DNA of 30,579 nt from a virus (lineage: Duplodnaviria; Caudoviricetes): positions 1 to 30,579 of IMG/VR virus record IMGVR_UViG_3300032329_000234, one strand, 5' to 3'. Each line of letters opens with the position of its first letter. The stretch's first letter is position 1. Shown here piece by piece: positions 1-30,468 of the stretch. Below the pieces are notes generated by a model that made no database searches, was not told where the DNA came from, and saw nothing but the letters and a program-made list of their open reading frames with translations. A program made the translations under genes and the position numbers.

Positions 1-123
1 ACTGACACATAAATATCCTTATATAGGATAAGTTATGAAAAACAGAAATAGCATACCTGCGAACTGGGCTGGCGATCGTTATATCAATCGTGAGTTGTTT
101 GAAAGTTATCTCAAGCCAGGACC
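1..123. repeat. Terminal direct repeat, copy 1 (circular assembly overlap)
   Basis: 1-123 is identical to 30457-30579, so the contig closes into a 30,456 bp circle. Confidence 0.95.
8..15 (+). promoter_or_regulatory. T4-late-like promoter box CATAAATA upstream of the HNH gene
   Basis: One mismatch to the T4 late consensus TATAAATA, 19 nt before ATG 35; contains the TAA stop of the upstream ORF in the circular genome. Confidence 0.6.
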
Positions 124-643
124 AAATGGTTGTTTATTATGGACAGGTCATATCACACGCATTGGATATGGCTTGATAGGTTTTACCTATCCCAAAGGTC
201 AGACCAGTCCATCTGGCAAACGAACGGGTATGATGAGTGCTCATAGAGCCGCCTTTCAATTACATCACGGTCGTGCTCCAAGTCAACCCAATATCAATCA
301 TCTTTGTCACGTAAAAAACTGTTGCGAACCTAGTCATTTACGGGAAGGCACACAGCAAGACAAAATTCAAAGTATGGCTACGGCAGGTATCAAGGGTGGG
401 CGTCAACTGGGGCAAACAGGTCTTGCTTATAATCATAAACAATGGAATCGTACTTACAAGCGTTCAGAAGAAGAAATAAACTGGATACGCTATGCCACCA
501 CTGATGAGATTGTGGCTCGTTATGGTATGCCCAAACAGCGAGCCAGTGCTTTTAGATGTATGGTACGCGATGGATACCGTTGGTTGCCGTTTGACAAAAG
601 CAAAGTGGTAAAACAAAAACCTGGACGCAAAAAGTCTGTATAA
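35..643 (+). CDS. HNH endonuclease (phage homing-endonuclease type) with a C-terminal putative DNA-binding helical domain
   Basis: Motifs CLLWTG...GYG...AHRAAFQLHHG...INHLCHVKNCCEPSHLREGTQQD are typical of phage HNH/Zn-loop nucleases; AGGA RBS at 25-28. Confidence 0.85.
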   Translation: MKNRNSIPANWAGDRYINRELFESYLKPGPNGCLLWTGHITRIGYGLIGFTYPKGQTSPSGKRTGMMSAHRAAFQLHHGRAPSQPNINHLCHVKNCCEPSHLREGTQQDKIQSMATAGIKGGRQLGQTGLAYNHKQWNRTYKRSEEEINWIRYATTDEIVARYGMPKQRASAFRCMVRDGYRWLPFDKSKVVKQKPGRKKSV

Positions 644-646
644 ATA
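639..646 (+). promoter_or_regulatory. Perfect T4 late promoter consensus TATAAATA
   Basis: Exact TATAAATA overlapping the HNH stop codon, directly upstream of a structured non-coding segment. Confidence 0.6.
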
Positions 647-650
647 TTAT

Positions 651-818
651 TGAGTGGGAGTTATCCATACCCTTCCTGGGATCATAGATATAATCCTAAA
701 TTGTTGATTGCCATTAACATTTAATCCCCAAATCTCCCACTCACCCAGTTTCACTCTAAGGCTTGTGTCAACCATCCTTGTAGAGTCAAAAGCCCTGTCA
801 CAAGCAGGGCTTTTTTTT
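651..818 (+). ncRNA. Candidate structured small RNA or leader RNA (about 165 nt)
   Basis: Bounded by TATAAATA and an intrinsic terminator; 10-bp helix TGAGTGGGAG (651-660)/CTCCCACTCA (734-743); hairpins at 702-719 and 754-785; no credible ORF. Confidence 0.6.
788..818 (+). terminator. Rho-independent terminator
   Basis: AAAAGCCCTG-tcacaag-CAGGGC followed by T8. Confidence 0.85.
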
Positions 819-841
819 GGCTGTTTTGAGACCATTTTCCA

Positions 842-870
842 TTGCTTTTTGTACAACTGTCATATATAAT
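842..870 (+). promoter_or_regulatory. Sigma70-type promoter
   Basis: TTGCTT (842-847), 17 nt spacer, TATAAT (865-870), just downstream of the terminator. Confidence 0.55.
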
Positions 871-939
871 AGTATAGGGATTAAGAAATGGCACGCAATT
901 TATAAAATAGATCGTAACGGATTTATAGATGATTATACT

Positions 940-1401
940 ATGAAAATAGATTTATACAACAACCACGAAACATTCAAACAAGAGTCCAAGCAGAACTCTG
1001 CTATAAATTCTTGGTATCGTGATATTGGATTGACTGCCAAAGACATTGACACACATCCTTGTATAACGGATCTCGCAATATTAATTCGCATAAGAAACGC
1101 TTACTGGACCATAATGACAGCCAGTGAACGTGCTTTATGGGCAGGTAGTTGGGGTGTGGTATACAAAGATAGAAAATTCCTACGCCCTAAAACCTTAAAC
1201 AAATTTGAAACATTGGTTGTCACCGCGTACGATCGCGAACAACGCTTAAACACCCAAAGAACTAAAATACAGTCACTAAGACACACTAATACAGAACCCT
1301 TAAAACGAGATCAAGATAATGAGGCTAACGGATCTCACTCGCACAGTTTACATAAACAGACTGTGACCAACGAGCGTGCCATAGAATGCCCTTACTTCTA
1401 A
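940..1401 (+). CDS. Hypothetical protein (probable start ATG 940 rather than 817)
   Basis: Open frame 817-1401, but 817-939 overlaps the terminator and promoter; first in-frame ATG is at 940; no recognised domain. Confidence 0.6.
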   Translation: MKIDLYNNHETFKQESKQNSAINSWYRDIGLTAKDIDTHPCITDLAILIRIRNAYWTIMTASERALWAGSWGVVYKDRKFLRPKTLNKFETLVVTAYDREQRLNTQRTKIQSLRHTNTEPLKRDQDNEANGSHSHSLHKQTVTNERAIECPYF

Positions 1402-1680
1402 AGTAACGGTTGGTGGTAGACTATAGCCAAAGGTCCACCTAGTAATATTCTGTTTATGTAGACTTGCTGAAAGGCCGCCCTTTATGGGGACGATCCAAGA
1501 TGACAGGTGTAGGAAACAAAGGACGCAACTGTGATTTATTTACAGTTTGCCATTCCTTTGACTCCAACTCCAAGTCGTATTAAAAACTTATTTGTTTCGT
1601 GTTTTTAACCAAGTCTGATAACAAATAGAACGACACGCCAGTGGAGTTCTTGTTATCAAGACAGATCTCCAAGAGATCTC
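1307..1680. other. Large multi-hairpin structured region (candidate ncRNA or replication origin)
   Basis: Inverted-repeat pairs 1307-12/1331-36, 1342-47/1360-65, 1412-16/1435-39, 1461-66/1571-76, 1517-23/1554-60, 1527-34/1540-47, 1580-87/1601-08, 1616-24/1650-58 and 1663-69/1673-79. Confidence 0.55.
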
Positions 1681-1705: not shown

Positions 1706-1864
1706 ATGCCAAGACCCTTGGGTAGTAAAAACAAACAACCAGGTGTATCAAATGCTCAAAGGCAACGGCGATATAGAGCAAGAGTCTACCTAAAAGATAG
1801 ACAACTCGTAAGAGATATAGTAAACTTATTACAACTCAACCACGAAGAAAAGGATCGCAAATGA
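1706..1864 (+). CDS. Small basic putative DNA-binding protein (52 aa; not in the ORF track)
   Basis: My translation is MPRPLGSKNKQPGVSNAQRQRRYRARVYLKDRQLVRDIVNLLQLNHEEKDRK; AAAGGA RBS; ATGA overlap with the next gene; AT-hook-like RPxGSKNK motif. Confidence 0.7.
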   Translation: MPRPLGSKNKQPGVSNAQRQRRYRARVYLKDRQLVRDIVNLLQLNHEEKDRK

Positions 1865-2325
1865 GTATTCAAAAAGGACGCACCTGTTGGCAACAGATAG
1901 CGGAAGTTCAAAACAAGATCTGTGCGGCAGAAGGTGAGATACAGCGAAATGACACCCGCATATGGGAGTATCTAAACAGAAGTGCCACAGCCTTTGATGA
2001 CAAGGACTGGCACAATATATTAGAGTATTTCTTTGGGGTTGTAGCAGTAGAACACCCAGACTTGGTAAGCCAAGCGGATTGGGATCTATTTGCTGAACTC
2101 ACAGACAGTCTACCAGAGGATCCCAGGCCAGGTGATCATACCTTCTATGGCCGTCCTTACAAGAGCACACCTGAAAAACTCAAAATGTGGCAGGCAGTGA
2201 TGCGTATGAGAGAAATATGGAACAAGATCCACGGTATTGAGATCCAAAATAGACCACAGGCCAAGACATCACGGTCTGAGGATCGCCCAACACCCCTGTT
2301 TAACACCTTGTTTACGACAGAATAG
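1861..2325 (+). CDS. Hypothetical protein
   Basis: 154 aa ORF with AAGGA RBS, translationally coupled to the upstream ORF. Confidence 0.7.
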   Translation: MSIQKGRTCWQQIAEVQNKICAAEGEIQRNDTRIWEYLNRSATAFDDKDWHNILEYFFGVVAVEHPDLVSQADWDLFAELTDSLPEDPRPGDHTFYGRPYKSTPEKLKMWQAVMRMREIWNKIHGIEIQNRPQAKTSRSEDRPTPLFNTLFTTE

Positions 2326-3622: not shown

Positions 3623-3630
3623 CATAAATA
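3623..3630 (+). promoter_or_regulatory. CATAAATA late-like promoter of the fibre operon
   Basis: Intergenic, 52 nt before ATG 3683; TAAGGA RBS follows. Confidence 0.6.
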
Positions 3631-3682: not shown

Positions 3683-6600
3683 ATGACCACAATTATCACT
3701 CGTGCGGTTAAAGGTAGCCCTTTATCCAATGATGAAGTAGATTCAAATTTTACAAACTTAAACACAGACTTAGTCGCAACTCAGGCAAATGTCATTGCCG
3801 CCAACACCAAGATCGCTAGCACGGATGCCAACCTAGGCACCGCTACTACCAATATCACAAACCTACAATCAAATGCGGCTAGCCAGCAAACTCAGATAGA
3901 CGCCAAAGCCGCCCTGGCAGGTGCCACATTCACAGGCAACATTTCAGCCCCATACATCCTGGGCAATGGTAGCAAATTAACTGGTATCTCAGCGGGCAGT
4001 TCCACAGCGGCCAATATTACTGTTACAGGCATCAATACCAATGTGGCATACAATCTTATGCTGAGTCCAACCTATAGTGGAACAGCCCAATTGTATGCTG
4101 AGACTGATGGCTCATTTACATACAATCCAGGTACCAATACATTAACAGTTGGCAATATCACAGGTAATGGAGCAGGCCTAACGGGTATTCCAACAGTGAC
4201 GGATGTGACCACAGCCAACACTGGTATGAAGAGTTATGTGGATGGTCAGGTCACCGCCTTAAACACCACAATCTCTGGGGTAACCACAGCCTGGACTGCC
4301 AATGCTGGTACACAACAGACCAGCATTAACACCAATACCACAGACATCGCAGGCCTTCGTGCCAACATCACAGCGGCCAATGCTGTTGTAGCAACCAAGA
4401 CTACAACCACTTATGTTGACTCAGCAGTGACCACTGCCAATACAGCAATGAAGACGTATGTGGATGGTCAGGTTGCCACCAAAACAACCACCACTTATGT
4501 TGACTCAGCCATTTCAACCGCTGTCAACAACCTAATCAATAGTGCCCCTGGTACCTTAGATACCCTGGGTGAAATTGCCGCCAACCTGGCCTTAGGTTCC
4601 TCAGCCGTGGGTGCTGTCACCGCTTCAATAACCTCAACCAATGCGAATGTCTCTGCCGCTAATGCCAAAATAGCCACGCTGGATGCTAACCTAGGCACAG
4701 CGACGACCAACATAACAACACTATTCGCAAATGCCGCAAGTCAACAGACCACAATGGCTGGACTAAGAACTGATGTTGATTACATTGTCAACACAAGTTT
4801 ACCAGGTGTGGTCAGCGTTAATTCAGTTCAGAATACCAGAATGGATACCTTTGAAGCCAACCTGGGTCAGAGATATACAGAAATACAAACAGGTGTTACC
4901 AACCTAGGATTGGCCACCACAGATATCACAGCATTAAAAGCCAACGCTGCCGCACAAGCCACACAAATATCAGATGTGAATACCAGCATAGTTGATTTAT
5001 ATGCCAATGCGGCAGGGCAAGCCTCAGCGATCTCAACTTTGACTGCCAACGCTGCCGCACAAGCCACAGACATAGCCGTGCTTTATGCCAATGCGGCCAC
5101 ACAGAGTTCAGCAATCGCTGGCAAAGCAAACACGTCAAGTTTGGCGGCTGTGGCAACATCAGGCTCATATACTGATTTATCTAACAAACCTACCATACCC
5201 GCACAATATTCTGGTGACCTTGCTGGCAATGTGATTTATGATAGTGTGCGTGGTCGTTTCATAGCCAATGCTTATCCCCTAAGCACACCTGATGGTAGTC
5301 GTTATGCCAACGGCTTTACCAATTACATTGTGAACACTCCCACATACTCCAATGGAGTATTACAGTATTCTTCAGCCACTGGTGTGGCCAGTCAAGGTGC
5401 TATGACCTATGGTGGAATATTGAGTGCTAACGTTGCCCTACAAAGTGCCTATGGCACGGGTGGTATCAAACAGGCAGTGGGCTTTTATCAATACAATCAA
5501 ATCACTCCTGTAACAGCCAATGTGATGAATCAAAATGATCGTGTGCGTGGTGGTATACTACAACTTGATCTAAACCTTAATGGTCAAACCTGGGGCATTT
5601 CAGGCAACACTTACAGTCAAGGTGCGGTATTCGCTGCCGCGGGTGGTGCTGTTGCTCAGATCATTGGTCCTGGTACCATTGGCAGTTTAATTGCCAGTAT
5701 CAACGGTGTCAACATCAATCCAGCACCAGGCCTACAATCCAATATTCAATATGCCACTGGCACACACAGCGTAGTATCATTTAACAGTAATGCTACCACC
5801 GCACAAGGCAATGTGGTCAACGCTAGATTGTTCGCGGGTGGTCTAAGTGGTTTTAGCGGCAACAACACCGTGGTCAATGCCATTGGTCTACATACCTATA
5901 ATGGTTGGGCAGGAACAATTGGCACTACATCTGGTGCCAAAAATGCCTATGCCTTGTTGAATGAAGATACCAGTACCCTAATACAAACTTCAGGCAATAT
6001 TGTATTTGCTTCAGGATCTGGCAAAGGTATTGTGTTCAGTGATGGCACAGTTCAGACCACAGCCGCATCAGGTTCAGGTGGTTCTGGCACTTATGGTGAT
6101 GCCAATGTGGCAGCCTATTTGTCCGCGGCTCTGGCACAAAATGTTGATACCTACAGTTTAACCTCAGGTAATATTTCAAGTCGTGGCAGTATTTCCGCGA
6201 CCACAGGATTCTTTTGGAGCAATGGAACACCATACTCAACTGGATCTGGTAATGCTTCAACTGGAAATATATCATTTGTCAATACTACGCTGACACCTAC
6301 CACAGACAATGTTACTCTATTAAAGAGTTACACGGGTAATGTGATCAGTCAAGCCAGTAATTTTATTTCACAATTAGCCTACGTAGAAAATTACAATTCT
6401 ATTACCACTGGCAATATCTATGCCACTTCACGTCGTGGCAGTTACGCATTTGCCAGTGACGCAGGTATATTTGGTGGTGCTGAGTCTGGTCCAATGGTTG
6501 GATTCCAACTACAACCAGCAGACAACGCGGCAGGCTCACCAGGACAACAATATTACCACGTAATGCCGCAAGATGGTAGATTTATCACAGCAGGCAATGT

Positions 6601-8005
6601 ATTGATTGGTCAATCAAATGTGTTGACCAATGGTTTTGGTGGTGTTGTGTCCAACGCTGGCGTGGTATTCCAAGATGGTACATTCCAACGAACTGCCGCT
6701 AGGTCTTTCGCAGGTGACCTTGCTGGATCTGTTGTGTATGATAGTGTGCTTGGTCGTAACTTTACCAATGCTTATCCCTTAAGCACACCAACTATAGGAA
6801 CCTCAGTTCCTGGATCAAGTTCCAACAACTTCTTATTGAATGGTCCAGTTTACTCAGGTGGTGTATTACAGTATCCACCCACACAGGTCAGTGGTGTTCA
6901 GAACGTATCCAGTGTAGTATTTGGTCAGGTAGTGTCAGGCAATGTGGCCATAAACGCCAGTGGACAAACAGCACAAAATAGAAACACAGTAAACCAATTG
7001 GTATTGAGCCAATTCCGTCCAACTGGTGCTAACTCATTTGGTAGTAGTGATCGTGTTCGTAGTTCAACCGTGGTCACTGATCTTATTTTGTCAGGTCAGA
7101 CCTGGGGCTTTGCCAATTCATCAAGTCAAAGTGCCACAGCGGTAACAGCCGCTGGTAGTCAGACCAGTTTGATAGGTTATGGCACAGTGGGATCAATGGT
7201 TGGAACCACAGGTGCTGTTCAAGTTTGTCCTACCAATGGAACAGCCAACGTTCAGTATGCCACTGGTTTGTTGGCAAGTATTAGTGTAAACTCTGTTGGC
7301 GGAGCCCAATATGCTGGTAATATTGCTTATGCTCGTGGTCTATCACCCACTGTGAGTGGTTTTACCGCCAACCTAACAGTTCAGAATGCTGTTGGCCTAC
7401 ATACTCCAAGTGGTTGGGCTGGAACTGTTGGATCTTCTACCGCTGGTGCTAAAAATGCCTATGCCTTGTTGAATGAAGATGCGTTGACACAGATTCAGAC
7501 CAATGGACCAATTACAACCACAGGCGGCACAGGTAATGTCACAGTTGGTGGCAATTTAACAGTTGGTAACAATAGTACTTTTGGTGGACCTGCCACATTC
7601 AATGGCACAACCACTATTGCTGGAACACTCAGTGGAGCAACAAGAAAGCAACAAGGTTCTTATAATGTCACAAGAACCACAGCCACAGTCCTAGACAACG
7701 TTCAGGCAATTATCAGCACTGAAGGTTGGCCACAGGTAGCTGGTAATGGTTCTACTTTGACCTATTATGCTTCAGCACAGTTTTTAGTAGGTGGACAAAC
7801 GGCCGCAACAAGATTACAAAGTGCTGGATCCACTGGGGCAGGCACATTTGCCAACGTGGTTGCCAGCGTTCCATATCCCTTGGCCACAGCAGGTGATACT
7901 GTAATTGCCTATGTCCAAGATAGTACCGCTGGCAAAATGTATCGTATAACCTACGCACAAACCGTAACCGCTGGTAGTGGTTATGTAGTGATAGAACAAA
8001 TTTAA
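3683..8005 (+). CDS. Long fibre protein (1440 aa): coiled-coil shaft plus duplicated beta-rich domains
   Basis: N-terminal KGSPLSNDEVDSNFTNLN, plus fibre motifs LINSAPGTLDTLGEIA and LAAVATSGSYTDLSNKPTIP; Ala/Thr/Asn heptads; internal duplication. Confidence 0.8.
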   Translation: MTTIITRAVKGSPLSNDEVDSNFTNLNTDLVATQANVIAANTKIASTDANLGTATTNITNLQSNAASQQTQIDAKAALAGATFTGNISAPYILGNGSKLTGISAGSSTAANITVTGINTNVAYNLMLSPTYSGTAQLYAETDGSFTYNPGTNTLTVGNITGNGAGLTGIPTVTDVTTANTGMKSYVDGQVTALNTTISGVTTAWTANAGTQQTSINTNTTDIAGLRANITAANAVVATKTTTTYVDSAVTTANTAMKTYVDGQVATKTTTTYVDSAISTAVNNLINSAPGTLDTLGEIAANLALGSSAVGAVTASITSTNANVSAANAKIATLDANLGTATTNITTLFANAASQQTTMAGLRTDVDYIVNTSLPGVVSVNSVQNTRMDTFEANLGQRYTEIQTGVTNLGLATTDITALKANAAAQATQISDVNTSIVDLYANAAGQASAISTLTANAAAQATDIAVLYANAATQSSAIAGKANTSSLAAVATSGSYTDLSNKPTIPAQYSGDLAGNVIYDSVRGRFIANAYPLSTPDGSRYANGFTNYIVNTPTYSNGVLQYSSATGVASQGAMTYGGILSANVALQSAYGTGGIKQAVGFYQYNQITPVTANVMNQNDRVRGGILQLDLNLNGQTWGISGNTYSQGAVFAAAGGAVAQIIGPGTIGSLIASINGVNINPAPGLQSNIQYATGTHSVVSFNSNATTAQGNVVNARLFAGGLSGFSGNNTVVNAIGLHTYNGWAGTIGTTSGAKNAYALLNEDTSTLIQTSGNIVFASGSGKGIVFSDGTVQTTAASGSGGSGTYGDANVAAYLSAALAQNVDTYSLTSGNISSRGSISATTGFFWSNGTPYSTGSGNASTGNISFVNTTLTPTTDNVTLLKSYTGNVISQASNFISQLAYVENYNSITTGNIYATSRRGSYAFASDAGIFGGAESGPMVGFQLQPADNAAGSPGQQYYHVMPQDGRFITAGNVLIGQSNVLTNGFGGVVSNAGVVFQDGTFQRTAARSFAGDLAGSVVYDSVLGRNFTNAYPLSTPTIGTSVPGSSSNNFLLNGPVYSGGVLQYPPTQVSGVQNVSSVVFGQVVSGNVAINASGQTAQNRNTVNQLVLSQFRPTGANSFGSSDRVRSSTVVTDLILSGQTWGFANSSSQSATAVTAAGSQTSLIGYGTVGSMVGTTGAVQVCPTNGTANVQYATGLLASISVNSVGGAQYAGNIAYARGLSPTVSGFTANLTVQNAVGLHTPSGWAGTVGSSTAGAKNAYALLNEDALTQIQTNGPITTTGGTGNVTVGGNLTVGNNSTFGGPATFNGTTTIAGTLSGATRKQQGSYNVTRTTATVLDNVQAIISTEGWPQVAGNGSTLTYYASAQFLVGGQTAATRLQSAGSTGAGTFANVVASVPYPLATAGDTVIAYVQDSTAGKMYRITYAQTVTAGSGYVVIEQI

Positions 8006-8013
8006 GGAACCAT

Positions 8014-8667
8014 ATGACTTGGCCAACTTCACAAGTATCAACAACTAACTTAGACCAAGGCACTGATAATCCAGGCCTTGCTCGCCCTGATCTAAAATCA
8101 GCAGTAGACAATATCAACGCTGTTGTTGCGGAATTTGGTAATGTTTCACTGTCCTCAAGCACTGAAGGTCAAGTGATTACCAAGGTCAGTGGAGTTTGGA
8201 CTGGTGCCACTCCCGCTACATATGGTAATACACAGGTGGCCGCATATCTTGTGGCCAATCCACCACCAGGCACCTATGGCAATACGCAAGTAAGTGCTTA
8301 CTTACCTTCATATATTCCCACATACACAGGCGTGGTTCCTGTAGCCAAATACAAAGAAGGTGCCTATGTCAGCACCGCAACCACTGGCACAGTCAATTTG
8401 GATTTTGCCAATGGTAATCAACAGATCCTAAATGCCACTGGCAATATTACCCTAGGATTTGTCAACGCACCCACAGCCTCAACAATGAGCATAGTGTTTA
8501 ACACTGGTGCCGCAAGCCGTTCCATTACATTTGCCAACACAGCCAAATACGCTGGTAATGTTCGTACAGTAAGTTCAACCATCAACACCACTGATGTCAT
8601 TGTGGCATCAACATATGATTCTGGTTCTACATACCTAATAAGTATTGTTAAGGGATTTGTTTCGTGA
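8014..8667 (+). CDS. Short fibre protein (paralogue of 27872-28576)
   Basis: Shares the N-terminal WP..TNLD..D...AR.DL anchor, YGN..VAAYL motif and C-terminal beta domain with 27872. Confidence 0.7.
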   Translation: MTWPTSQVSTTNLDQGTDNPGLARPDLKSAVDNINAVVAEFGNVSLSSSTEGQVITKVSGVWTGATPATYGNTQVAAYLVANPPPGTYGNTQVSAYLPSYIPTYTGVVPVAKYKEGAYVSTATTGTVNLDFANGNQQILNATGNITLGFVNAPTASTMSIVFNTGAASRSITFANTAKYAGNVRTVSSTINTTDVIVASTYDSGSTYLISIVKGFVS

Positions 8668-9374
8668 TTGGTCAGGCATTACATAGTTTATTTCAACTGG
8701 CCTCTGGCGGTGGAGCAGGATCAGCCACGCCAGGATCTGGTTCCATTGCCTATGATGGTGCCTATACTGTTGTAACCTATACCGCATCTGATACAGTTAT
8801 TGTGTCAGGTGGCAATTTAGACATTACCTATCTCATAGTTGGAGCAGGTGGAGCAGGTGGCGGATACATTGGCGGTGGCGGTGGCGGAGGACAAGTCCTT
8901 ACAGGTTCCGCTTCATTGGCACCTGGATCATATGCCATCACAGTTGGAACCAACAGTGGTGATTCAAGCACATTCAATAGCCTAACAGCCGCAGGTGGTG
9001 GTTCAGGACAAAATGGTAATCTTAACGGAAATGGTGGCAATGGCGGAACATCAGGTAATGGTCATTCAGGTGGCTCAGGTGGCAATGCCAATAATACAGC
9101 AGGAGCAGGCGGTGGCGGTAATGCTACCAACGGCACCAATGCTTCAAGCACCACAGCAGGTCGCGGTGGCGATGGATCACCAAGTTCAATAACAGGCACT
9201 ACATTATATTATGGAGCAGGTGGCTCTGGTGGTATTGGCAAAGGACAGGCCTGGCACGGTTCAGGTGGCCAATTGAATTCTGGATCATATGGAACAGGTG
9301 CTGGTGGTAATGGTGAAACATACAGCACAGTAGCAGGAACACAAGGCGTTGTTATTATCAGATACTTAACATAA
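8664..9374 (+). CDS. Glycine-rich adhesin / fibre tip protein
   Basis: YLIVGAGGAGG...GGGGGGGQV...YYGAGGSGG...GVVIIRYL is the typical phage Gly-rich domain; GTGA overlap. Confidence 0.75.
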   Translation: MIGQALHSLFQLASGGGAGSATPGSGSIAYDGAYTVVTYTASDTVIVSGGNLDITYLIVGAGGAGGGYIGGGGGGGQVLTGSASLAPGSYAITVGTNSGDSSTFNSLTAAGGGSGQNGNLNGNGGNGGTSGNGHSGGSGGNANNTAGAGGGGNATNGTNASSTTAGRGGDGSPSSITGTTLYYGAGGSGGIGKGQAWHGSGGQLNSGSYGTGAGGNGETYSTVAGTQGVVIIRYLT

Positions 9375-19455: not shown

Positions 19456-19467
19456 CAGGAGATTATT

Positions 19468-23142: not shown

Positions 23143-23152
23143 AGGATAAACA

Positions 23153-23794
23153 ATGTCAGGCACATTACCAATTAATTATTTTAGCAAGGTTACATTAAAA
23201 AGTAACACACCTACAGCCACCAGTGTAAGTATGGCAGGTAATCGCCAAAGCAAACAATTGGCCGCACAGTATTGGACAATGGATTGCGATTATCGTCCAT
23301 TACAACGCAGTGAGATCGCACAGATAATGGCTTTCTTAAACAAACAACGCAACAGTTTGCTGAGTTTTGACGTGGTATTACCCAAACATTCTAGACCAGA
23401 TGGCAGTATCAAAAATATCTATACTTCATCCAATGGTGGCATATCAGTCAATGGAACTCCTGCTATTGGTTCTACTTCTGTGAACGTAAATTTTGCTTCA
23501 TTGACCGCAACTTCATTTACAGGTGCTGGTTTATCAACCACAGTATTCAAAGCAGGTGACTTTGTTAAATTTAACAATCATACCAAGACATATCAACTTA
23601 CTGATGATGTTGTTATCTCAGGTGGTTCAGCAACAATGAATATTTTTCCAGGCTTGTTTGCTCCATTGACCAATGGTTTGTCAGTGATTTACTGGGATGT
23701 ACCATTTACTGTGTTCAACACACAAGGCACACAAGAATATAGCCTAGGCATTGAAGCCAACGGTCTACAACTTAAATTACAAGAAGCACTATGA
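23153..23794 (+). CDS. Distal tail protein (probable)
   Basis: Follows the tape measure; QYW...Y.PL...IMAFL and KAGDFVKF..H.K.Y motifs. Confidence 0.7.
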   Translation: MSGTLPINYFSKVTLKSNTPTATSVSMAGNRQSKQLAAQYWTMDCDYRPLQRSEIAQIMAFLNKQRNSLLSFDVVLPKHSRPDGSIKNIYTSSNGGISVNGTPAIGSTSVNVNFASLTATSFTGAGLSTTVFKAGDFVKFNNHTKTYQLTDDVVISGGSATMNIFPGLFAPLTNGLSVIYWDVPFTVFNTQGTQEYSLGIEANGLQLKLQEAL

Positions 23795-24363
23795 AAATTC
23801 TTGATAGTAACATTATCACACAATTGGAATCAGACAATTTTTTGTTTGCGGAATTGATTGAGTTTCAGTTAGATACACCAATTTATCTAACTACAGCAGG
23901 ATATAATATCTATGCTTCAACTCTGACCAGCGGTGGTAGTCAGACCTATCTAGCACAAGGTAAATTTTTAAGTTATAGTGGTGTTCGTCAAACAGACGAA
24001 TTTCGTATCAACAGCGTTAGCATATTGCTAAGTGGTTCAACAGATACATTTATCAATATGGTCTTACAAGATCGTTACCTACACAGAACTGTAAGAATTT
24101 ACAAAACTTGGATCAACTATACAACCAATTCTCTTATTGCTTCACCTAGTCTGATTTATTCAGGCACTATCACAGGTGCCAATATTGTTGATACAGCCAA
24201 AGAAACTCAGGTTGCTATTGATACAGGCAATGAATTTTATGACTTTGACAAAATTGCTGGTCGCTTGACCAATGTTGGTAGTCAACAAAAGTTTTATCCT
24301 GCGGATCAAGGTATGACTTACAGCACAGGAACTATTACAGATTTACGATGGGGTAAAGTATGA
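23791..24363 (+). CDS. Tail tip / baseplate protein
   Basis: Synteny; C-terminal GRLTN..SQQKFYP.D.G......L.WG motif. Confidence 0.7.
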   Translation: MKILDSNIITQLESDNFLFAELIEFQLDTPIYLTTAGYNIYASTLTSGGSQTYLAQGKFLSYSGVRQTDEFRINSVSILLSGSTDTFINMVLQDRYLHRTVRIYKTWINYTTNSLIASPSLIYSGTITGANIVDTAKETQVAIDTGNEFYDFDKIAGRLTNVGSQQKFYPADQGMTYSTGTITDLRWGKV

Positions 24364-24833
24364 TCATTGATGGACAAAGTTATCATCTCAAAGATGTTGT
24401 TAGATTGGGCAAGGCCTATCATAGTGAAAGTCCTTATGCTGTTACACACGAATACAATGAAAAGAAAACATTAGACTTTTTGCGTCAGGCAATGATCTAT
24501 CCTACTATGAAAACAGTGGTAGCAGAATATGACAACCGTGTGGTTGGAGCAGCCATTTGTTATTTACAAGAATATATGTGGGCAGACAGTTATAGAGCCA
24601 CAATGGAATTCTTTTATGTGGAACCAGAATATCGTGCTTTGGGACTAGCAGAACAAATGTTAGAACGCTGTATTGAATGGGCAGTCAAAATGAATGCCAC
24701 AGAATTTATGGCAGGTGATTTGGGTCTTCGTCCGCGTCTAACACAAAGGTTCCTTGAAAATCAAGGTTTCCAAGATCCAGGTGTAATCTTACGAAAGGTA
24801 TTGAATGTTGAAAAAGTTACTGAAGAAGCATAA
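24360..24833 (+). CDS. GNAT-family acyltransferase
   Basis: Acyl-CoA-binding motif A FFYVEPEYRALGLAEQML. Confidence 0.85.
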   Translation: MIIDGQSYHLKDVVRLGKAYHSESPYAVTHEYNEKKTLDFLRQAMIYPTMKTVVAEYDNRVVGAAICYLQEYMWADSYRATMEFFYVEPEYRALGLAEQMLERCIEWAVKMNATEFMAGDLGLRPRLTQRFLENQGFQDPGVILRKVLNVEKVTEEA

Positions 24834-27042
24834 TTTTTCTAAACTAGGCTTCTTGGCATTCCTATTGTCCTTTAGTGGATTGGCCTTTGCTGGTGGTGGT
24901 GGTGGAGGTGGTATTGTTGGAGCCATTGTGGGTGTTGTTGCTGTTATTGCGGCACCATTTACCTTTGGAACCAGTTTGGCCCTAGCAGGTGCTTTGTTAG
25001 CAGGTGCCGCTGTGGGTTATATGTTGGGCACAACTGTTGAGATGATGTTACATCCACCAAGTTTTGATATGCCAGATATGAGCAACAGTCAGGCAGCCAG
25101 TCAAAACGCAGGTATTACCATCAACAAACAAGGAACCAACATTGCTGTGCCTGTGGTATATGGACAGCGTCGTGTGGGTGGTGCTCGTGTATTTGTCAGT
25201 ACCAATGGAACTGAAAATAGAGATTTGTATATGGCTCTTGTGCTGGCAGAAGGCGAAATAGACAGCATTGTTAGAGTTGTTATTGATGATATTACAGTAT
25301 GGACAGGCACCAGCACACACGGTGCTAGTTATACTCCCAATACCAGTGCGTTCCAACCTTATTTTACATTTGAAACTTATCACGGTACCGCTAATCAAAC
25401 AGCAAGTCCATTGTTGAAAAATGCCTCTGGTTGGGATGATACTAAAAAATTAAGTGGTTTGGCCTATCTTGCTGTCAAATGTAGTTGGCCAAATATCACC
25501 ACCAATGATGATGCCAAAAAGAATCCTTGGGGTGGTATTCCTAACATTGTGGTTGAGTTGCGTGGCAAGCGTGTTCAATTTCCAACCAATTTTTCTTATG
25601 ATTACGCAAATGTAACATATGATCAAAGATTAAATTGGGACAAGAATAGATATCTTGCCACCACTGGTTACAGTAATCATCCTGTTGATTGTTTATTAGA
25701 TTACTTACGCAATCCTATCTATGGTAAAGGTCTTGCTGACACACAAATAGATTGGCACAGTTTTTACAAAGAGCGTATTCGTTGGACCAAAGATCAAAAT
25801 GGTGCGGTGTTGGCAGATAATCTACAACACAGAACCAATGGTGTTATTTTTACAGACAGAACTGTTATGGAAAATGTCAAAACCATATTGTTGAATATGC
25901 GTAGCAGTTTGATCTATCAAGATGGTCGCTATCGTCTTGTTGTGGTTGATAATGGTGATACCAGCAGTATCTATGCGGCCGCCAGCACCAGTGTAATGAC
26001 CATTACCACTGAAGATATCATTGATGGTATTAAGATACAGGCTGAATCAGCAGATGGCAAAGCCAATCGTATCACCATCAGTTATATGGGCTATATTGGT
26101 AGTGAATCAGGATCAGATGTTAAAACATATGAAACTATTGATTATGTATACCCATCAATTGGTAGTGCTACTGAAACCACATATCAAGCACAGGATGGTG
26201 GACGCTTGGTTGAGACCAAGATGACATTTGAACATATTACTGATGTTACCACAGCGGCCAAATTGGCACAGATAGTTTTAGAACGAGCAAGAAACAAAGG
26301 TAAAGTTATTACCTTCCAAGGCACTTCAAGAATGTATCAACTTGAAGTTGGAGATGTTGTTACATTACAATATCCAAGCCTAAGTATCAATGATCAATAT
26401 CGTGTTAAAAGTGTGGTTCAAAATGAAGATTTTACTTTTGTTATCACGCTTGAAGAACAAAATGATGTGACCTATGCTTATAATCCAACGCCACAGGTCA
26501 ATACCAAATATCGTCAATGGTTTATGGGCGATACAGGCAAACAGCCTGGTCAAGGTCCTATATTACCAGGACCACCAAGTTTGCCAGCACCAGGACAACA
26601 ACTCAATGGTATGTTGATTTGTCCATATAGTCCTGGCAAAAATTATAATGTGGCACCTTACTATGAAAATGGTGCCATTGGTCCTGATGTAAAGGTTGCC
26701 TTTGCTATTAGAATTAGTGCTTATGCTACCAGTCTAAATCCTTATACTGTAAGCCTAGGCAATCAATTGAGTACTTTTATTAACATCTCAAGTTTTAGTG
26801 CTTACTATCGCATTGCTGGCACTACTACTTGGACTTTCGCAGGCACAGGAACTTTTAATCCATATAGTAGTTCAGGATTCAGTGGTGACATAAATCTAGG
26901 TGATTGTAAACCAGGAATTATATTAGACATCAGGTATGACTTAAAAGATATCTCAATGCCAATGTGGGGCACAGCATCAGCATTTAGTTTATATACTTCA
27001 TACTTGTTACCAACCGCAACCGCAGGAGGATTCCAAACATAA
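24805..27042 (+). CDS. Tail tip hub / host specificity protein (gpJ-like)
   Basis: VPVVYGQRRVGG..VFV, LVLAEGEI, LSGLAYLA, CLLDYLRN..YGKG and LEVGDVV motifs. Confidence 0.85.
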   Translation: MLKKLLKKHNFSKLGFLAFLLSFSGLAFAGGGGGGGIVGAIVGVVAVIAAPFTFGTSLALAGALLAGAAVGYMLGTTVEMMLHPPSFDMPDMSNSQAASQNAGITINKQGTNIAVPVVYGQRRVGGARVFVSTNGTENRDLYMALVLAEGEIDSIVRVVIDDITVWTGTSTHGASYTPNTSAFQPYFTFETYHGTANQTASPLLKNASGWDDTKKLSGLAYLAVKCSWPNITTNDDAKKNPWGGIPNIVVELRGKRVQFPTNFSYDYANVTYDQRLNWDKNRYLATTGYSNHPVDCLLDYLRNPIYGKGLADTQIDWHSFYKERIRWTKDQNGAVLADNLQHRTNGVIFTDRTVMENVKTILLNMRSSLIYQDGRYRLVVVDNGDTSSIYAAASTSVMTITTEDIIDGIKIQAESADGKANRITISYMGYIGSESGSDVKTYETIDYVYPSIGSATETTYQAQDGGRLVETKMTFEHITDVTTAAKLAQIVLERARNKGKVITFQGTSRMYQLEVGDVVTLQYPSLSINDQYRVKSVVQNEDFTFVITLEEQNDVTYAYNPTPQVNTKYRQWFMGDTGKQPGQGPILPGPPSLPAPGQQLNGMLICPYSPGKNYNVAPYYENGAIGPDVKVAFAIRISAYATSLNPYTVSLGNQLSTFINISSFSAYYRIAGTTTWTFAGTGTFNPYSSSGFSGDINLGDCKPGIILDIRYDLKDISMPMWGTASAFSLYTSYLLPTATAGGFQT

Positions 27043-27710
27043 TGGCTATCTACAATAACAATTATTATCCTGACAGTCGCAACAGTACCTGGGCTGACAT
27101 CGCAGATTTGACCTGGGCTGATGCTACCTATGATTGGTCAGCATTTAGTCCTACCAGTTCCAATGCCACAGCCACGTGGTCATATACCACTGACGCACAG
27201 GATCTTGGCAGTCAAAAAACTTTTTATCCAACAACTGAAATCACTTGGGATAGTAGTAAACCTATCACTATCACCTATGATTACAGTCAAGATGGCACTA
27301 CCTATTATAATACTCAACCAGGCAGTATCACCGCAAGATATATCAAAACCAATGTAAGCACCGCAGGTAGTTATGTTGGCAGTATTTTTACACAGATAAA
27401 TTATAATCCAACCAGCGAAACACACTATAATTTGAATACCGCCACCTTGGCTGGTAATGTAAATTATAGAACATTGGATACAAATAATTTTAGTTCTATT
27501 CAAAGTGTCTCAGTAACTCCTGCTGTGTCAGAAACAAGACCAGTAGCAGGAAGATTGATTGCCAACAACACTGGTAACATTCAACTTAGAATTGTTAATT
27601 TGGACACCTGGGATAAAGTGGCTGTTGATGCCAATGTAAATATTGTTGTGACAGGATTTCCGTTCTTGACCACAAATGCCAATGCGGGAATAGTAGCAGT
27701 AACCAAATAA
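27042..27710 (+). CDS. Tail-associated structural protein
   Basis: 222 aa, beta-rich, translationally coupled to the hub gene. Confidence 0.6.
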   Translation: MAIYNNNYYPDSRNSTWADIADLTWADATYDWSAFSPTSSNATATWSYTTDAQDLGSQKTFYPTTEITWDSSKPITITYDYSQDGTTYYNTQPGSITARYIKTNVSTAGSYVGSIFTQINYNPTSETHYNLNTATLAGNVNYRTLDTNNFSSIQSVSVTPAVSETRPVAGRLIANNTGNIQLRIVNLDTWDKVAVDANVNIVVTGFPFLTTNANAGIVAVTK

Positions 27711-27719
27711 GGAAAATAT

Positions 27720-27875
27720 ATGCCAGTTCATAAAGTTCATATGCCAAATGGCAAAACAGGATATCAGTGGGGAGGCCACGGTAAAGTTTATACAGGCACC
27801 AATGCCAAACAAAAGGCCGCGGCACAAGGTCGTGCGGCCTATGCCAACGGCTACAAAGGTAAAGGAATGAAATGA
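27720..27875 (+). CDS. Small basic conserved phage protein (51 aa; not in the ORF track)
   Basis: MPVHKVHMPNGKTGYQWGGHGKVYTGTNAKQKAAAQGRAAYANGYKGKGMK; AAGGA RBS; ATGA overlap with the next gene. Confidence 0.7.
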   Translation: MPVHKVHMPNGKTGYQWGGHGKVYTGTNAKQKAAAQGRAAYANGYKGKGMK

Positions 27876-28576
27876 CTTGGCCAGCAGGAGCAATTAGCAC
27901 AGCCAATCTAGACGCAGGATCTGACAGTATCAGTGCGGCTCGTGCGGATCTGTATCAAATGGCAGTCAAGGTCAATATGATGATTGACAATGGTGCCACT
28001 ATATCAGACACACCAAATTCCTATGGCAATGCCAATGTTGCGGCATATTTGCCTACATATCAAGGACAATTCAGTAATCTTTGGGTTACAGGCACTAATA
28101 CTACAAATTTAATTAAAAATACAACACAGTTTGATGGTCCTGTTTATTTTACCGCTACTACAGCACCGTATCCTGTTGTATTTTACAATAGTGTTCAATG
28201 TCAAGGTCTATTAGATGTTGCCAGTCTTAATATCAATAATGGAACAAGTCTAGGTTCATATATTGAAAGAATATATACCATTGGTAACTCAGGATCTGGA
28301 ACTGTTACACCATATGCTAGTAATGGAGCAGTTCAAAAATTAACAGCCACAGGTAATTTTACCTTGGCCGCACCCAGTGGTATGTCAGCAGGATCAAGTA
28401 TTGTTTTGATCATTCGTCAAGATTCCACAGGTAGTCGTGTTCCTACAATTAATAGTGCTTATAAATTTGCCGCTGGTCAAAAAACTTTGAGCACAGCAGG
28501 CCTAAGTGTTGATATGATTACTATATTTTACGATGGTTCTGATTATCTATGTAATTTAATAAAGGCTTATTCATAA
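27872..28576 (+). CDS. Short fibre protein (paralogue of 8014-8667)
   Basis: Shared N-terminal anchor, YGNANVAAYLPTY, and C-terminal LIIRQDSTGSR...YKFA.G...LST...D.I domain. Confidence 0.7.
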   Translation: MTWPAGAISTANLDAGSDSISAARADLYQMAVKVNMMIDNGATISDTPNSYGNANVAAYLPTYQGQFSNLWVTGTNTTNLIKNTTQFDGPVYFTATTAPYPVVFYNSVQCQGLLDVASLNINNGTSLGSYIERIYTIGNSGSGTVTPYASNGAVQKLTATGNFTLAAPSGMSAGSSIVLIIRQDSTGSRVPTINSAYKFAAGQKTLSTAGLSVDMITIFYDGSDYLCNLIKAYS

Positions 28577-29322
28577 TGTTCGCACACTGGCACGGTGATT
28601 ACAAAGAAGTTAATAATCCTAGCATAGGTGTTACAGTTCTTCACGGCTCACCAAGTTTTAGTAGTAGCATCAAAAAGTTTGGTACACATAGTCTTAAAAT
28701 GACCAATACAGATAATTCAACATATGATCTATTACAATTTACCAGAAGCGACAACTATACTGGTATGGCCTGGACTATTGAATATTGGTTATATGTTGTT
28801 CATCCAGGATATCCGTTACCATATGGTAGTCACGTGATAAGATTTGGCAATAACATAGGTTCAAATCTTATCAGTAATGGCACATCAAATTCTGGGCCAT
28901 TTAATCTTGAACAATGGTTCTACGGTATTGGTTCTGCTGGCGGTAATGGTTATGGTGGATATGTATATGCGTCCAATCGCGGTAATGTTCAATTTCCTGC
29001 TAATACTTGGATCCATTTTTGTTTACAACGAGGATCTGATGGTTATGTTACAGCATATTGGAATGGATATGTAGATCGCGGAAATGCCAATCAATCATCT
29101 AATTTAACACAAACATTTACCATTGGCAATGATAGTAATCATTCATATGGTAGTATACCTGTAGAATGGTATATGGATGAATTAAGAATTAGCAATATCG
29201 CAAGATATAGCACAGAACAATCAACCTATGATCCACCACATCAGTTATTCACACCTGCTACAAGTGAATTTACTACAGATAGTAATACGTTATTATTGAC
29301 ACACTTTAATAACTCATATTAA
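28576..29322 (+). CDS. LamG/ConA-like lectin-domain adhesin
   Basis: KKFGTHSL, WTIEYW, W.H..L.R....YWNG, YMDELRIS.IARY and D.NTLLL.HF motifs. Confidence 0.75.
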   Translation: MFAHWHGDYKEVNNPSIGVTVLHGSPSFSSSIKKFGTHSLKMTNTDNSTYDLLQFTRSDNYTGMAWTIEYWLYVVHPGYPLPYGSHVIRFGNNIGSNLISNGTSNSGPFNLEQWFYGIGSAGGNGYGGYVYASNRGNVQFPANTWIHFCLQRGSDGYVTAYWNGYVDRGNANQSSNLTQTFTIGNDSNHSYGSIPVEWYMDELRISNIARYSTEQSTYDPPHQLFTPATSEFTTDSNTLLLTHFNNSY

Positions 29323-29342
29323 ATAATTAAAAGGAAAATACT

Positions 29343-29768
29343 ATGGCTTGGCCAGGTTCAAATCTCAACACAACAAATTTAGATAATCCCACGGATAAAC
29401 CAGCGGACGCAAGAGCAGATTTACTTGCTACAGTTCAGGCTGTAAATTCAATAGCGGCGGCACGCGGTCAGGCCTATGGTGTGGCCAGTTTAGATGGTGC
29501 TGGATTGGTGCCAGATAGTCAAATACCTGATACACTATCAAGTGACGCAGGCAATGACTTTACATTTCAACCCAGTAGTGGTCGTCTAACAGTATTTTAT
29601 ATTGCCAGCCTACAACCAAGAACAGTGAGCCAATTAACAGCCTTGTCAGCCATCACAGGCGATGTGGCCTATTGTTCAAATGGCGATGCGGGTAATCCCT
29701 GCTTGGCAGTTTGGACTGGCTCAGCCTGGAAACGTATTGCCTTAGGCACTACCATAAGTGCTACCTAA
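29343..29768 (+). CDS. Structural protein with the shared fibre anchor domain
   Basis: N-terminus like 8014 and 27872; GVASLDGAGLVP.SQIP motif; preceded by TAAATA (29320-29325) and AAGGA. Confidence 0.65.
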   Translation: MAWPGSNLNTTNLDNPTDKPADARADLLATVQAVNSIAAARGQAYGVASLDGAGLVPDSQIPDTLSSDAGNDFTFQPSSGRLTVFYIASLQPRTVSQLTALSAITGDVAYCSNGDAGNPCLAVWTGSAWKRIALGTTISAT

Positions 29769-29769
29769 T

Positions 29770-30033
29770 ATGTCACAAGTTCACGATATTGAATCAGAAA
29801 GCCTACCTGCCCACGTAAGTATCTGCCAAGAGCGTTACAATCAATTGGATCAACGCATTACCAGTATTGAAAAGAAATTGATTGGTATAGATATTATTTT
29901 ATGTGAGATCAGAGACGCAATACAAGGTGACCGCAAGGACAACTTTCGTTTGTTTTTGACCTGGGCCAGTGTGATAATCACCACGCTTTTAGGTGCTACA
30001 GGCACACTTTTATACCACTACGTGCTTAGATAG
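29770..30033 (+). CDS. Coiled-coil plus single transmembrane protein (holin- or XhlA-like)
   Basis: HVSICQERY...coiled coil...LFLTWASVIITTLLGATGTLLY; probable start ATG 29770. Confidence 0.55.
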   Translation: MSQVHDIESESLPAHVSICQERYNQLDQRITSIEKKLIGIDIILCEIRDAIQGDRKDNFRLFLTWASVIITTLLGATGTLLYHYVLR

Positions 30034-30075
30034 CAGAAATAGTCCAGGCCTATATAAAACCCATTAAATATGGGT

Positions 30076-30468
30076 ATGAGTTATCAATCACCCTTGGGCA
30101 AGTTGCCCATCAAGCGTAAGAAAAATATCAAAGATCCACCCATCAAGATTCCAGATATTCTACGCTTGCCTGATGGGCGTGAATTTGTGCTTAAAGATTT
30201 GATGGTCAAACCCAAGCGTGAATTTATCAATCTACGCACCAAAACTGTGGGCACAAGACCCAACAATGTTTGTAAAGAACCCAAATATTCCTATCAGGAC
30301 CACGTTTGGATTAGTCAAGCAGATCCCGTGGAAGTTATGAATCGTTTTGAACTACGACGCGAATATGTCAAAACTTTTATCAATCGCAGTCGTGCCATTA
30401 TCAAGCGTATACAAGACAGCACAGATGATCACATCATAACTGTGGGCAAGGCCTTGACTGACACATAA
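30076..30468 (+). CDS. Basic protein sharing the C-terminal domain of the HNH nuclease
   Basis: KYSYQDHVWISQADPVEVMNRFELRREYVKTF aligns with HNH KRSEEEINWIRYATTDEIVARYGMPKQRASAF; TAAATA (30065-30070) lies 5 nt before ATG 30076 (30070 is an alternative start). Confidence 0.65.
   Translation: MSYQSPLGKLPIKRKKNIKDPPIKIPDILRLPDGREFVLKDLMVKPKREFINLRTKTVGTRPNNVCKEPKYSYQDHVWISQADPVEVMNRFELRREYVKTFINRSRAIIKRIQDSTDDHIITVGKALTDT

What the first reader, a model, noticed from the sequence alone, without database searches (positions are those of the whole stretch)
1..30456. Complete mini-siphophage with a full virion but no replication, sigma factor, lysogeny or endolysin genes: candidate parasite of a T4-like or jumbo helper phage
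Seen: the genome is circular and unidirectional, about 26 kb is virion genes, and the remainder has only an HNH and small hypotheticals. I recognise no polymerase, primase, helicase, SSB, integrase, repressor, sigma factor or lysin. Known: TATAAATA late promoters are read by RNA polymerase with a phage-encoded gp55-type sigma factor, and classic satellites (P4, PICI, PLE) replicate themselves but steal virion parts. Inference: this element could be the inverse, building its own particle while borrowing late transcription, and perhaps replication and lysis, from a co-infecting large phage.
Basis: partly seen in the sequence, partly recalled or inferred. Interest (0 to 1): 0.88.

Follow-up and report, generated by a model that had tools for sequence, protein, structure and literature searches.

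The report
Phage likely parasitising jumbo phages
A complete 30-kb tailed phage encodes its whole virus particle and carries ATAAATA motifs before its virion genes but no recognisable sigma factor, polymerase or lysin, so it likely borrows late transcription, and perhaps DNA replication, from a co-infecting jumbo phage, which would make it a bacterial counterpart of virophages.

Summary
The observation largely holds. The genome is a true 30,456-bp circle with 40 same-strand genes, a 26-kb virion block, and no recognisable polymerase, sigma factor, integrase or endolysin. The motif is ATAAATA, not TATAAATA (one copy, chance level).

Ten family genomes hold 48 forward and 2 reverse copies (31 and 46 expected); 31 more loci hold 45 and 0; prophage controls and HTVC111P show no such bias.

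ATAAATA is the predicted late promoter of CBB/GAP32-like jumbo phages. A 361-kb jumbo of that kin has it before genes and encodes the gp55-type sigma factor. Its relatives' polymerases end in F-x-x-L-F (29 of 30 tails), as does window ORF 1861-2325.

New parts: a covarying 270-nt structured element (also in podoviruses) and a conserved short hairpin unit after one motif.

Against: no helper is linked directly, and one relative encodes a PolA-fold protein. Capsid-encoding satellites are known (MiniFlayer); late-promoter parasitism by a long-tailed phage was not found in eight searches. Helper dependence about 0.7.

The parts
1..123 (.). Terminal direct repeat (identical to 30457-30579); unit length 30,456 bp
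   Evidence: junction bridged by one contig
9..15 (+). ATAAATA motif, 26 nt before the HNH gene; predicted late promoter
35..643 (+). HNH endonuclease; homolog beside the same cassette in podovirus loci L070/L409
   Evidence: phrog_3593 E 5.6e-20, PF13392
640..646 (+). ATAAATA motif overlapping the HNH stop; the only exact TATAAATA (639-646)
647..820 (+). Candidate late small RNA: 10-bp closing stem (651-743), GCCAT at 710-714, terminator-like hairpin 788-814
   Evidence: closing stem of 10-13 bp in 9 of 9 family junction sites vs 1 of 39 other ATAAATA sites with 9 bp or more; GCCAT in 9 of 9 vs 5 of 39; terminator; no Rfam family
842..870 (+). Possible host sigma-70 promoter (3 of 6 at -35, 17-nt spacer, TATAAT), read by eye
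   Evidence: sequence; not listed by the scan
940..1401 (+). All-helical 153-aa protein; a homolog lies beside the structured element in 10 of the 12 other loci that hold it; its tail overlaps the element
   Evidence: no clear structural match
1302..1573 (+). Conserved multi-helix structured element with a possible pseudoknot; candidate origin or primer RNA (function inferred from position only)
   Evidence: fold z -5.33; 23 of 47 predicted pairs with compensatory change in 11 sequences; 27 of 55 pairs, 0 of 500 shuffles; no Rfam match
1706..1864 (+). 52-aa basic ORF, no family
1861..2325 (+). Helical 154-aa protein with a conserved F-N-x-[LI]-F tail behind a disordered linker; predicted docking peptide for a sliding clamp
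   Evidence: 10 of 10 close homologs carry the tail, 2 distant ones do not; model; fold matches only two uncharacterised phage proteins
2419..3603 (+). Four small ORFs (2419-2541, 2538-2855, 2993-3346, 3343-3603) with no family; not folded
3624..3630 (+). ATAAATA motif, 59 nt before the first fibre gene
3683..12510 (+). Fibre and fibre-adaptor genes (1440-aa and 757-aa proteins read as fibre-like by eye; Gp80-like; Gp77-like)
   Evidence: PF23140, PF23148, PF21722; the two long proteins have no clear family
12520..15683 (+). Small terminase, large terminase, portal
15680..16189 (+). Dps/ferritin-like protein; 29-35% identical homologs in 6 of 6 jumbo records tested
   Evidence: no match in 50,697 phage records
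16196..16202 (+). ATAAATA motif, 42 nt before the scaffold and major capsid genes
16238..17809 (+). Scaffold and major capsid protein
17880..17886 (+). ATAAATA motif, 53 nt before the neck and tail block
17933..29768 (+). Neck, tail terminator, two tail tube paralogs, chaperones, tape measure, distal tail, hub, GNAT acetyltransferase (24360-24833), central fibre, further fibres
29758..30033 (+). 91-aa protein with a hydrophobic C-terminal stretch; weak holin-like candidate
   Evidence: phrog_1193 E 3e-4
30070..30468 (+). 132-aa basic protein, family of 58 representatives, no known family; its C-terminal half resembles the HNH tail by eye

Best explanation
This is a complete, integrase-free 30-kb siphovirus genome that encodes its own particle and likely has its virion genes switched on by the gp55-type late sigma factor of a co-infecting large phage, most likely a CBB/GAP32/PA5oct-like jumbo phage. 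Steps: (1) shown: it encodes head, packaging motor, long tail and fibres; (2) shown: ATAAATA stands before its operons and is almost absent from the opposite strand across the family; (3) shown within profile sensitivity: no gp55-type sigma gene; (4) inferred: after entry, host RNA polymerase makes the early cassette (940-1401, the structured element 1302-1573, 1861-2325), and the DNA persists unintegrated or enters together with the helper; (5) inferred: the helper's late sigma factor transcribes the ATAAATA units, including the short hairpin RNA at 647-820; (6) inferred, weaker: the structured element is the origin or primer, and ORF 1861-2325 docks by its F-N-x-L-F tail on the helper's sliding clamp to draw in or compete for the helper's replisome; (7) inferred: progeny leave through the helper's lysis.
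For: Motif bias: 10 genomes, 48 forward vs 31.2 expected and 2 reverse vs 46.2 expected; 31 further TerL loci, 45 vs 27.0 and 0 vs 38.5; 75 control loci, 35 and 40; the cultured TerL relative HTVC111P has 13 and 21 and is annotated with a DnaD-domain protein and a lysozyme. No conserved -35 box around 48 family sites (highest flank information 0.51 bit). ATAAATA is the predicted late promoter at 35 places before structural genes in CBB, which encodes a gp55-like sigma (PMC5259590 passages). Jumbo G022 (360,683 bp) has 126 copies, 70 intergenic, 67 within 100 nt of a start, and a late sigma (phrog_12791, E 3e-74) nearest to PA5oct, Phosso, CBB and GAP32. phrog_12791 is in 0 of 11 small records and in G022; phrog_234 is in 0 of 10 small records and 3 of 3 jumbos. 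29 of 30 distinct jumbo PolB tails carry F-x-x-L-F; the gene next to PolB is annotated as sliding clamp or PCNA in 2 of 15 records; the motif ends 5 of 52 non-structural and 0 of 241 other family proteins, background 20 of 5172 windows. An unrelated podovirus-type virion module carries the same cassette and ATAAATA before its small terminase. About 810 stretches of this jumbo polymerase are estimated in the viral collection.
Against: No host, helper pair, co-abundance or transcript is shown. The motif also fits T4-like phages (NATAAATA; G024). G022 prefers G before the motif (38 of 67); the family does not (8 of 48). G022 was reached by chance and shares only the Dps gene with the window. G006 encodes a PolA-fold protein (TM 0.59 to a PF00476 cluster), so replication dependence is not family-wide. 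The F-x-x-L-F tail was not found in strict form in G001, G002, G005, G008 or G017, nor on the G022 late sigma. My own tests of the clamp's identity were inconclusive. Only two of the small ORFs were folded.
Confidence: 0.6

Rival explanations
1. Autonomous small phage: one of the unannotated small proteins is a divergent late activator that binds ATAAATA, DNA is copied by host enzymes from the structured element (Rep-free, primer-RNA style as in ColE1 plasmids, recalled), and lysis uses an unrecognised enzyme.
For: Many small ORFs have no family and four at 2419-3603 were not folded; a possible sigma-70 promoter precedes the cassette (by eye); G006 has its own PolA-fold protein; a holin-like ORF exists; the tail motif could instead bind the host beta clamp (motif QL[SD]LF recalled).
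Against: In the all-against-all clustering the window's non-structural ORFs formed singleton clusters, while the motif is in all ten genomes, so a shared own activator is not apparent; the models of 940-1401 and 1861-2325 gave no sigma match (inconclusive for helical folds); the motif equals the predicted jumbo late promoter.
Confidence: 0.2
2. Helper-dependent as above, but the helper is a T4-like myovirus rather than a CBB/GAP32/PA5oct-like jumbo.
For: NATAAATA is the cyanomyovirus late promoter (PMC2984593 passages); the T4-like record G024 has gp55 and many copies of the motif; the base before the motif is unbiased in the family.
Against: The G024 polymerase ends without F-x-x-L-F, whereas 29 of 30 jumbo tails have it; Dps homologs are in 6 of 6 jumbo records.
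Confidence: 0.12
3. ATAAATA is read by a sigma factor of an unknown host, so no second phage is needed for transcription.
For: The host is unknown; no relative above 54% TerL identity was found in GTDB genomes.
Against: There is no -35 element; in the papers read, the motif is tied to phage gp55-type factors; the cultured relative lacks the strand bias.
Confidence: 0.07
4. The contig is a mis-circularised piece of a larger genome.
For: Metagenomic assembly only.
Against: A separately assembled contig bridges the junction; four relatives have terminal repeats at 26-30 kb; DSL-LC06 is circular at 29.8 kb; all 48 TerL loci lie on contigs of 30.7 kb or less.
Confidence: 0.01

Closest known systems
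Phage DSL-LC06 (OR003941; proposed family 'Nanhuiviridae', PMC10611076)
   Same: 29.8-kb circle, TerL 54% identical, similar head and tail gene order, no replication, sigma or lysis gene annotated, ATAAATA 7 forward and 1 reverse.
   Different: The paper's main text has no occurrence of 'helper', 'satellite', 'promoter' or 'sigma' (passages seen, supplements not read). DSL-LC06 carries glycosyltransferases and no match to the structured element.
MiniFlayer and MulchRoom, satellite viruses of Streptomyces phages (PMC10690885)
   Same: Own capsid and packaging genes, no obvious replicase, terminal repeats, virulent large helper; MiniFlayer lacks an integration module.
   Different: Dependence is shown there and only inferred here. 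This genome has a tape-measure gene and a full long tail. The words 'promoter', 'sigma' and 'tape measure' do not occur in that paper's main text. No sequence comparison with them was made.
Virophages of giant viruses
   Same: Own virion; carry the late promoter of the giant virus (PMC10301787 passages). The G006 PolA-fold protein has structural neighbours in Preplasmiviricota clusters with D5-type domains.
   Different: Eukaryotic hosts and a different capsid lineage (recalled); this is a tailed bacteriophage. An analogy, not membership.
Pelagibacter phage HTVC111P
   Same: 31.6 kb, TerL 50% identical, similar virion module.
   Different: Annotated DnaD-domain protein, HTH regulator and lysozyme; genes on both strands; no ATAAATA strand bias.
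P4, PICI, cf-PICI, PLE and the I55 island of jumbo phage JPTI55
   Same: Dependence on a helper phage; I55 exploits a jumbo phage (PMC12772148, part 1 of 2).
   Different: They integrate and take capsids or tails from the helper; this genome has no integrase and encodes the whole particle.

Membership tests
Bacteriophage satellite virus (MiniFlayer/MulchRoom kind) | Encodes own capsid and packaging genes | tested here: met
Bacteriophage satellite virus (MiniFlayer/MulchRoom kind) | No recognisable replicase | tested here: met
   profiles of relatives' PolA-fold and 250-aa slot proteins find nothing in the window; not met by relative G006
Bacteriophage satellite virus (MiniFlayer/MulchRoom kind) | Cannot propagate without a helper phage | not testable with these tools
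   needs culture
PICI / P4 / PLE / cf-PICI | Integrase and chromosomal residence | tested here: not met
   no integrase family; no close TerL relative inside a GTDB chromosome
PICI / P4 / PLE / cf-PICI | Lacks tail genes | tested here: not met
   tail tube, tape measure, distal tail and central fibre genes present
gp55-type late transcription unit | (N)ATAAATA upstream of virion operons, no -35 box | tested here: met
gp55-type late transcription unit | Own gp55-type sigma gene | tested here: not met
   phrog_12791, phrog_234 and PF04542 give no match; a very divergent factor is not excluded
gp55-type late transcription unit | Transcripts start just downstream of the motif | not testable with these tools
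   no RNA holder listed
Sigma factor or known replication initiator, for ORFs 940-1401 and 1861-2325 | Fold match to a solved sigma or Rep | tested here: inconclusive
   best Z 6.7 and 5.2, generic helical matches
'Nanhuiviridae' (DSL-LC06 group) | Gene-sharing cluster VC_342_0 | not tested
   only TerL identity and gene order compared
Known Rfam RNA family, for 647-820 and 1302-1573 | Covariance-model match | tested here: not met
Sliding clamp, for the gene beside the jumbo PolB | Homology to gp45, PCNA or beta clamp | tested here: inconclusive
   annotated so in 2 of 15 records; no PDB match; hhalign to a gp45-like protein 2%

The most novel reading that the evidence does not exclude
A widespread guild of 26-35-kb siphoviruses and podoviruses are bacterial virophages of CBB/GAP32/PA5oct-like jumbo phages: they build complete tailed particles, wait unintegrated in the host, fire their virion genes from the jumbo's late sigma factor, and hijack its sliding clamp with a mimic of the polymerase tail, using an undescribed structured RNA as origin and a late small RNA as a switch or weapon.
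Probability: 0.3. Interest if true: 0.93.

Novelty: new variant of a known kind. Interest (0 to 1): 0.8.

Why it matters
If true, a family of ordinary-looking small phages in virome collections is a set of parasites of jumbo phages, and they can be recognised by a simple signature: a strand-specific helper late promoter without the sigma gene. It would extend virophage logic to tailed bacteriophages, explain replicase-free complete genomes, and point to natural inhibitors of jumbo phages. It also yields two undescribed structured elements and a testable clamp-binding peptide.

Tried and rejected
Exact TATAAATA as the motif: chance level.

Hidden folds: 940-1401 and 1861-2325 gave only generic helical matches; the Atlas gave nothing above 0.82 for 940-1401; 30070-30468 had no Pfam or PDB match.

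Small-RNA target: the GCCAT loop can pair with an AATGGC in the downstream leader, but that site ranked only 5th to 289th of about 2,600-3,050 windows per genome (133rd in the window), so I do not claim it.

Searches that led nowhere: a loose three-motif scan for the small RNA returned mostly chance hits; the HNH found no viral loci; DNA 600-1720 and the Dps had no match in the phage collection; the Endo VII of G007 points to 40-kb podoviruses, not to large phages; DNA similarity of family genomes to G022 is limited to short weak pieces. Dps homologs found at E 1e-25 all lie on contigs of 30.6 kb or less, and I did not test whether the jumbo Dps is nearer than bacterial Dps.

Co-occurrence: three dataset numbers are shared between named family or cassette contigs and named jumbo contigs, but only 80 of at least 609 jumbo loci were shown, so this is uninformative. 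No RNA holder listed.

The complex prediction of the clamp candidate with the ORF 1861-2325 tail was not available. Earlier-findings look-ups returned nothing. An archaeal TATA box was considered and dropped: the bases before the motif are not TT and the genes have AGGA-type ribosome sites. A group I intron reading of 1302-1573 was considered from recalled motifs and dropped (no Rfam match).
Full report
OBSERVATION. The window is one IMG/VR-type virus record with a 123-nt exact terminal repeat. A 4,858-nt contig of run X1 maps to 27871-30579 with its bases 1-2709 and to 1-2274 with its bases 2587-4858, so it crosses the junction; X1 may be the source sample but is a separate assembly. I called 40 ORFs, all on +. 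PHROGs and Pfam name the terminases, portal, scaffold, major capsid, neck, tail terminator, two tail tubes, chaperones, tape measure, distal tail, hub and central fibre, plus an HNH, a Dps/ferritin, a GNAT and a weak holin-like ORF. None of the 40 matches a polymerase, primase, helicase, SSB, integrase, repressor, sigma or endolysin family; NCBIfam adds nothing for the 15 scanned. The virion block spans 26,086 bp.

THE MOTIF. TATAAATA occurs once, at chance level. ATAAATA occurs five times in the unit, all on +, four times 26-59 nt before a start: HNH, first fibre, scaffold/capsid, neck/tail. TerL found 48 related loci, all on contigs of at most 30.7 kb; I fetched the eight largest records whole, four with terminal repeats. 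With DSL-LC06 the ten genomes hold 48 forward copies (31.2 expected, order-3 Markov) and 2 reverse (46.2 expected). Of the 48 TerL loci I then set aside 8 already counted, 2 duplicates and 7 of 45-53% identity; the other 31 hold 45 forward and 0 reverse (27.0 and 38.5 expected), and the 7 hold 19 and 1. Seventy-five control loci from bacterial genomes hold 35 and 40. The 31 include L003, whose TerL is identical to the window's, and other close relatives, so they are not 31 independent cases. HTVC111P, a cultured TerL relative with an annotated DnaD-domain protein and lysozyme, has 13 and 21. Near-absence from the antisense strand is what one expects (inference) if the seven bases alone suffice to start transcription. 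The flanks show no -35 box.

WHO READS IT. In CBB and GAP32, ATAAATA is the predicted late promoter before structural genes and CBB encodes a gp55-like sigma (PMC5259590, passages; supplements not read). NATAAATA is the cyanomyovirus late promoter (PMC2984593, passages). The two gp55-type profiles find nothing in the small records: 0 of 11 for phrog_12791 and 0 of 10 for phrog_234; PF04542 finds nothing in the four small records tested, but also nothing in G022. Models of 940-1401 and 1861-2325 match no sigma or Rep, which for helical proteins is inconclusive; the other small ORFs were not folded. A chance pattern hit led to G022, a 360,683-bp record with terminal repeats. It has 126 ATAAATA, 70 intergenic and 67 within 100 nt of a same-strand start, a late sigma nearest to PA5oct, Phosso, CBB, GAP32 and Atu_ph07, and a family B polymerase with about 810 estimated relatives in the collection. 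G022 stands for a candidate clade; it is not shown to be this phage's helper. Flank profiles of family and G022 sites correlate weakly (r 0.23, permutation maximum 0.228), and G022 prefers G before the motif while the family does not.

A SHARED PEPTIDE TAIL. ORF 1861-2325 ends in F-N-x-[LI]-F in 10 of 10 close homologs, behind a variable linker with low model confidence; two distant homologs lack it. 29 of 30 distinct jumbo polymerase tails carry F-x-x-L-F. The next gene in the jumbo is annotated as sliding clamp or PCNA in 2 of 15 records; my own tests of that were inconclusive. That phage polymerases bind their clamp by a C-terminal hydrophobic peptide is recalled from T4/RB69. The motif ends 5 of 52 non-structural and 0 of 241 other family proteins (background 20 of 5172); a recount found it in G000, G003, G004, G006, G007, DSL-LC06 and L072 and not in strict form in G001, G002, G005, G008, G017, L067 or L179. 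Clamp binding is a prediction.

THE REPLICATION SLOT. After the last late gene, each of the nine genomes G000-G008 has an ATAAATA followed by a closing stem of 10-13 bp (9 of 9 vs 1 of 39 other sites), a terminator-like hairpin (8 of 9 vs 4 of 39) and GCCAT (9 of 9 vs 5 of 39), mostly in a hairpin loop. I chose these sites by position and noticed the structure while reading them, so the contrast is partly after the fact. Downstream the genomes differ: G006 has a PolA-fold protein (G005 and the cut end of G008 look similar by eye), G001-G004 have a protein of about 250 aa of no family, and the window has ORF 940-1401 with a 270-nt structured element; profiles of the first two find nothing in the window. 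The element folds at z -5.33, has 23 of 47 pairs with compensatory change in 11 sequences and, with two added crossing helices, 27 of 55 pairs, above all 500 shuffles and all slid controls (the structure was derived from these sequences, and one added helix is only 71% paired). It has no Rfam match. Its role as origin or primer is inferred from position alone. It also lies, with ORF 940-1401 and an HNH, in podovirus-type contigs; G017 is a chimera of two related units about 35 kb apart with ATAAATA before the small terminase, and I saw no polymerase or helicase there by eye (only the sigma profiles were run on it). Among 74 non-core proteins of the eight relatives I scanned 64 against PHROGs: Endo VII three times, methyltransferases, no lysin, sigma, helicase or integrase; 10 were left out as large or structural-looking. 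No relative above 54% TerL identity lies in GTDB genomes, and those best hits are 2-6-kb contigs in bins.

MECHANISM. Most likely (0.6): a self-encapsidating satellite whose late genes are read by a jumbo phage's gp55-type sigma, with replication and lysis help less certain. Dependence on some gp55-encoding phage: about 0.7. Main rival (0.2): an autonomous phage with a hidden activator and host-enzyme replication.

COMPARISON AND NOVELTY. Satellites with their own capsid and no replicase are known (PMC10690885: part 1 of 6 and passages; PMC12822802 and PMC13587820: abstract and outline). A jumbo-borne integrative satellite is known (PMC12772148, part 1 of 2). Virophages carry their giant virus's late promoter (PMC10301787, passages). 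The family itself has been named from DSL-LC06 without mention of helpers or promoters (PMC10611076, passages). PMC7824862 (passages) gives background on clamps in such phages. Eight searches listed no paper on a complete long-tailed phage using a jumbo's late promoter; the library lacks most subscription papers and preprint supplements are closed, so this is not proof of absence.

VERDICT. Real, family-wide and not found explained in the literature searched; a new variant of a known kind, with the helper link still circumstantial. Interest 0.8.

Noticed in passing
window 1302-1573; L067, L068, L070, L072, L077, L049, L393, L399, L403, L419: Undescribed covarying structured element shared by siphovirus- and podovirus-type genomes, overlapping the end of an ORF; possible pseudoknot.
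   Followed up: yes
window 647-820 and the same junction in G001-G008: Short hairpin unit after ATAAATA with GCCAT and a terminator; candidate late small RNA, target not established.
   Followed up: partly
L053:11975-12140; G001 has a similar copy: A second ATAAATA-led non-coding stretch in G002 contains the complement of a ribosome-binding site plus start codon.
   Followed up: no
L061:2579-3652 (G006); L060:6070-7758, minus strand (G005): PolA-fold protein without a family name in the slot where the window has the structured element; structural neighbours include Preplasmiviricota proteins with D5-type domains.
   Followed up: partly
L053:12271-13032 and homolog-like ORFs in G001, G003, G004: Protein of about 250 aa with a low-complexity N-terminal part in the same slot; no family.
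   Followed up: partly
G017 and G018 (L070, L071, L080-L083): G017 (54.5 kb) is a chimera of two related podovirus-type units about 35 kb apart; G018 (50.4 kb) looks alike but was not checked. They carry GroES-like, Dps-like and methyltransferase-like genes (by eye).
   Followed up: partly
window 19033-19905: Two tandem tail tube paralogs, 77-80% alike in DNA; also tandem in G001.
   Followed up: no
window 3683-8005: 1440-aa fibre-like protein with an internal duplication of about 500 aa (repeats 1500-1512 bp apart).
   Followed up: no
window 2856-2992: Two copies of a repeat of about 25 nt and a two-way terminator-like hairpin in the gap before ORF 2993-3346.
   Followed up: no
window 20198-20703: Tail chaperone pair with a run of A at the first stop, as expected for a programmed frameshift (recalled).
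   Followed up: no
L078:4428-4448 (DSL-LC06): The single reverse-strand ATAAATA lies upstream of a reverse-strand ORF (4073-4318), back to back with a forward copy.
   Followed up: no
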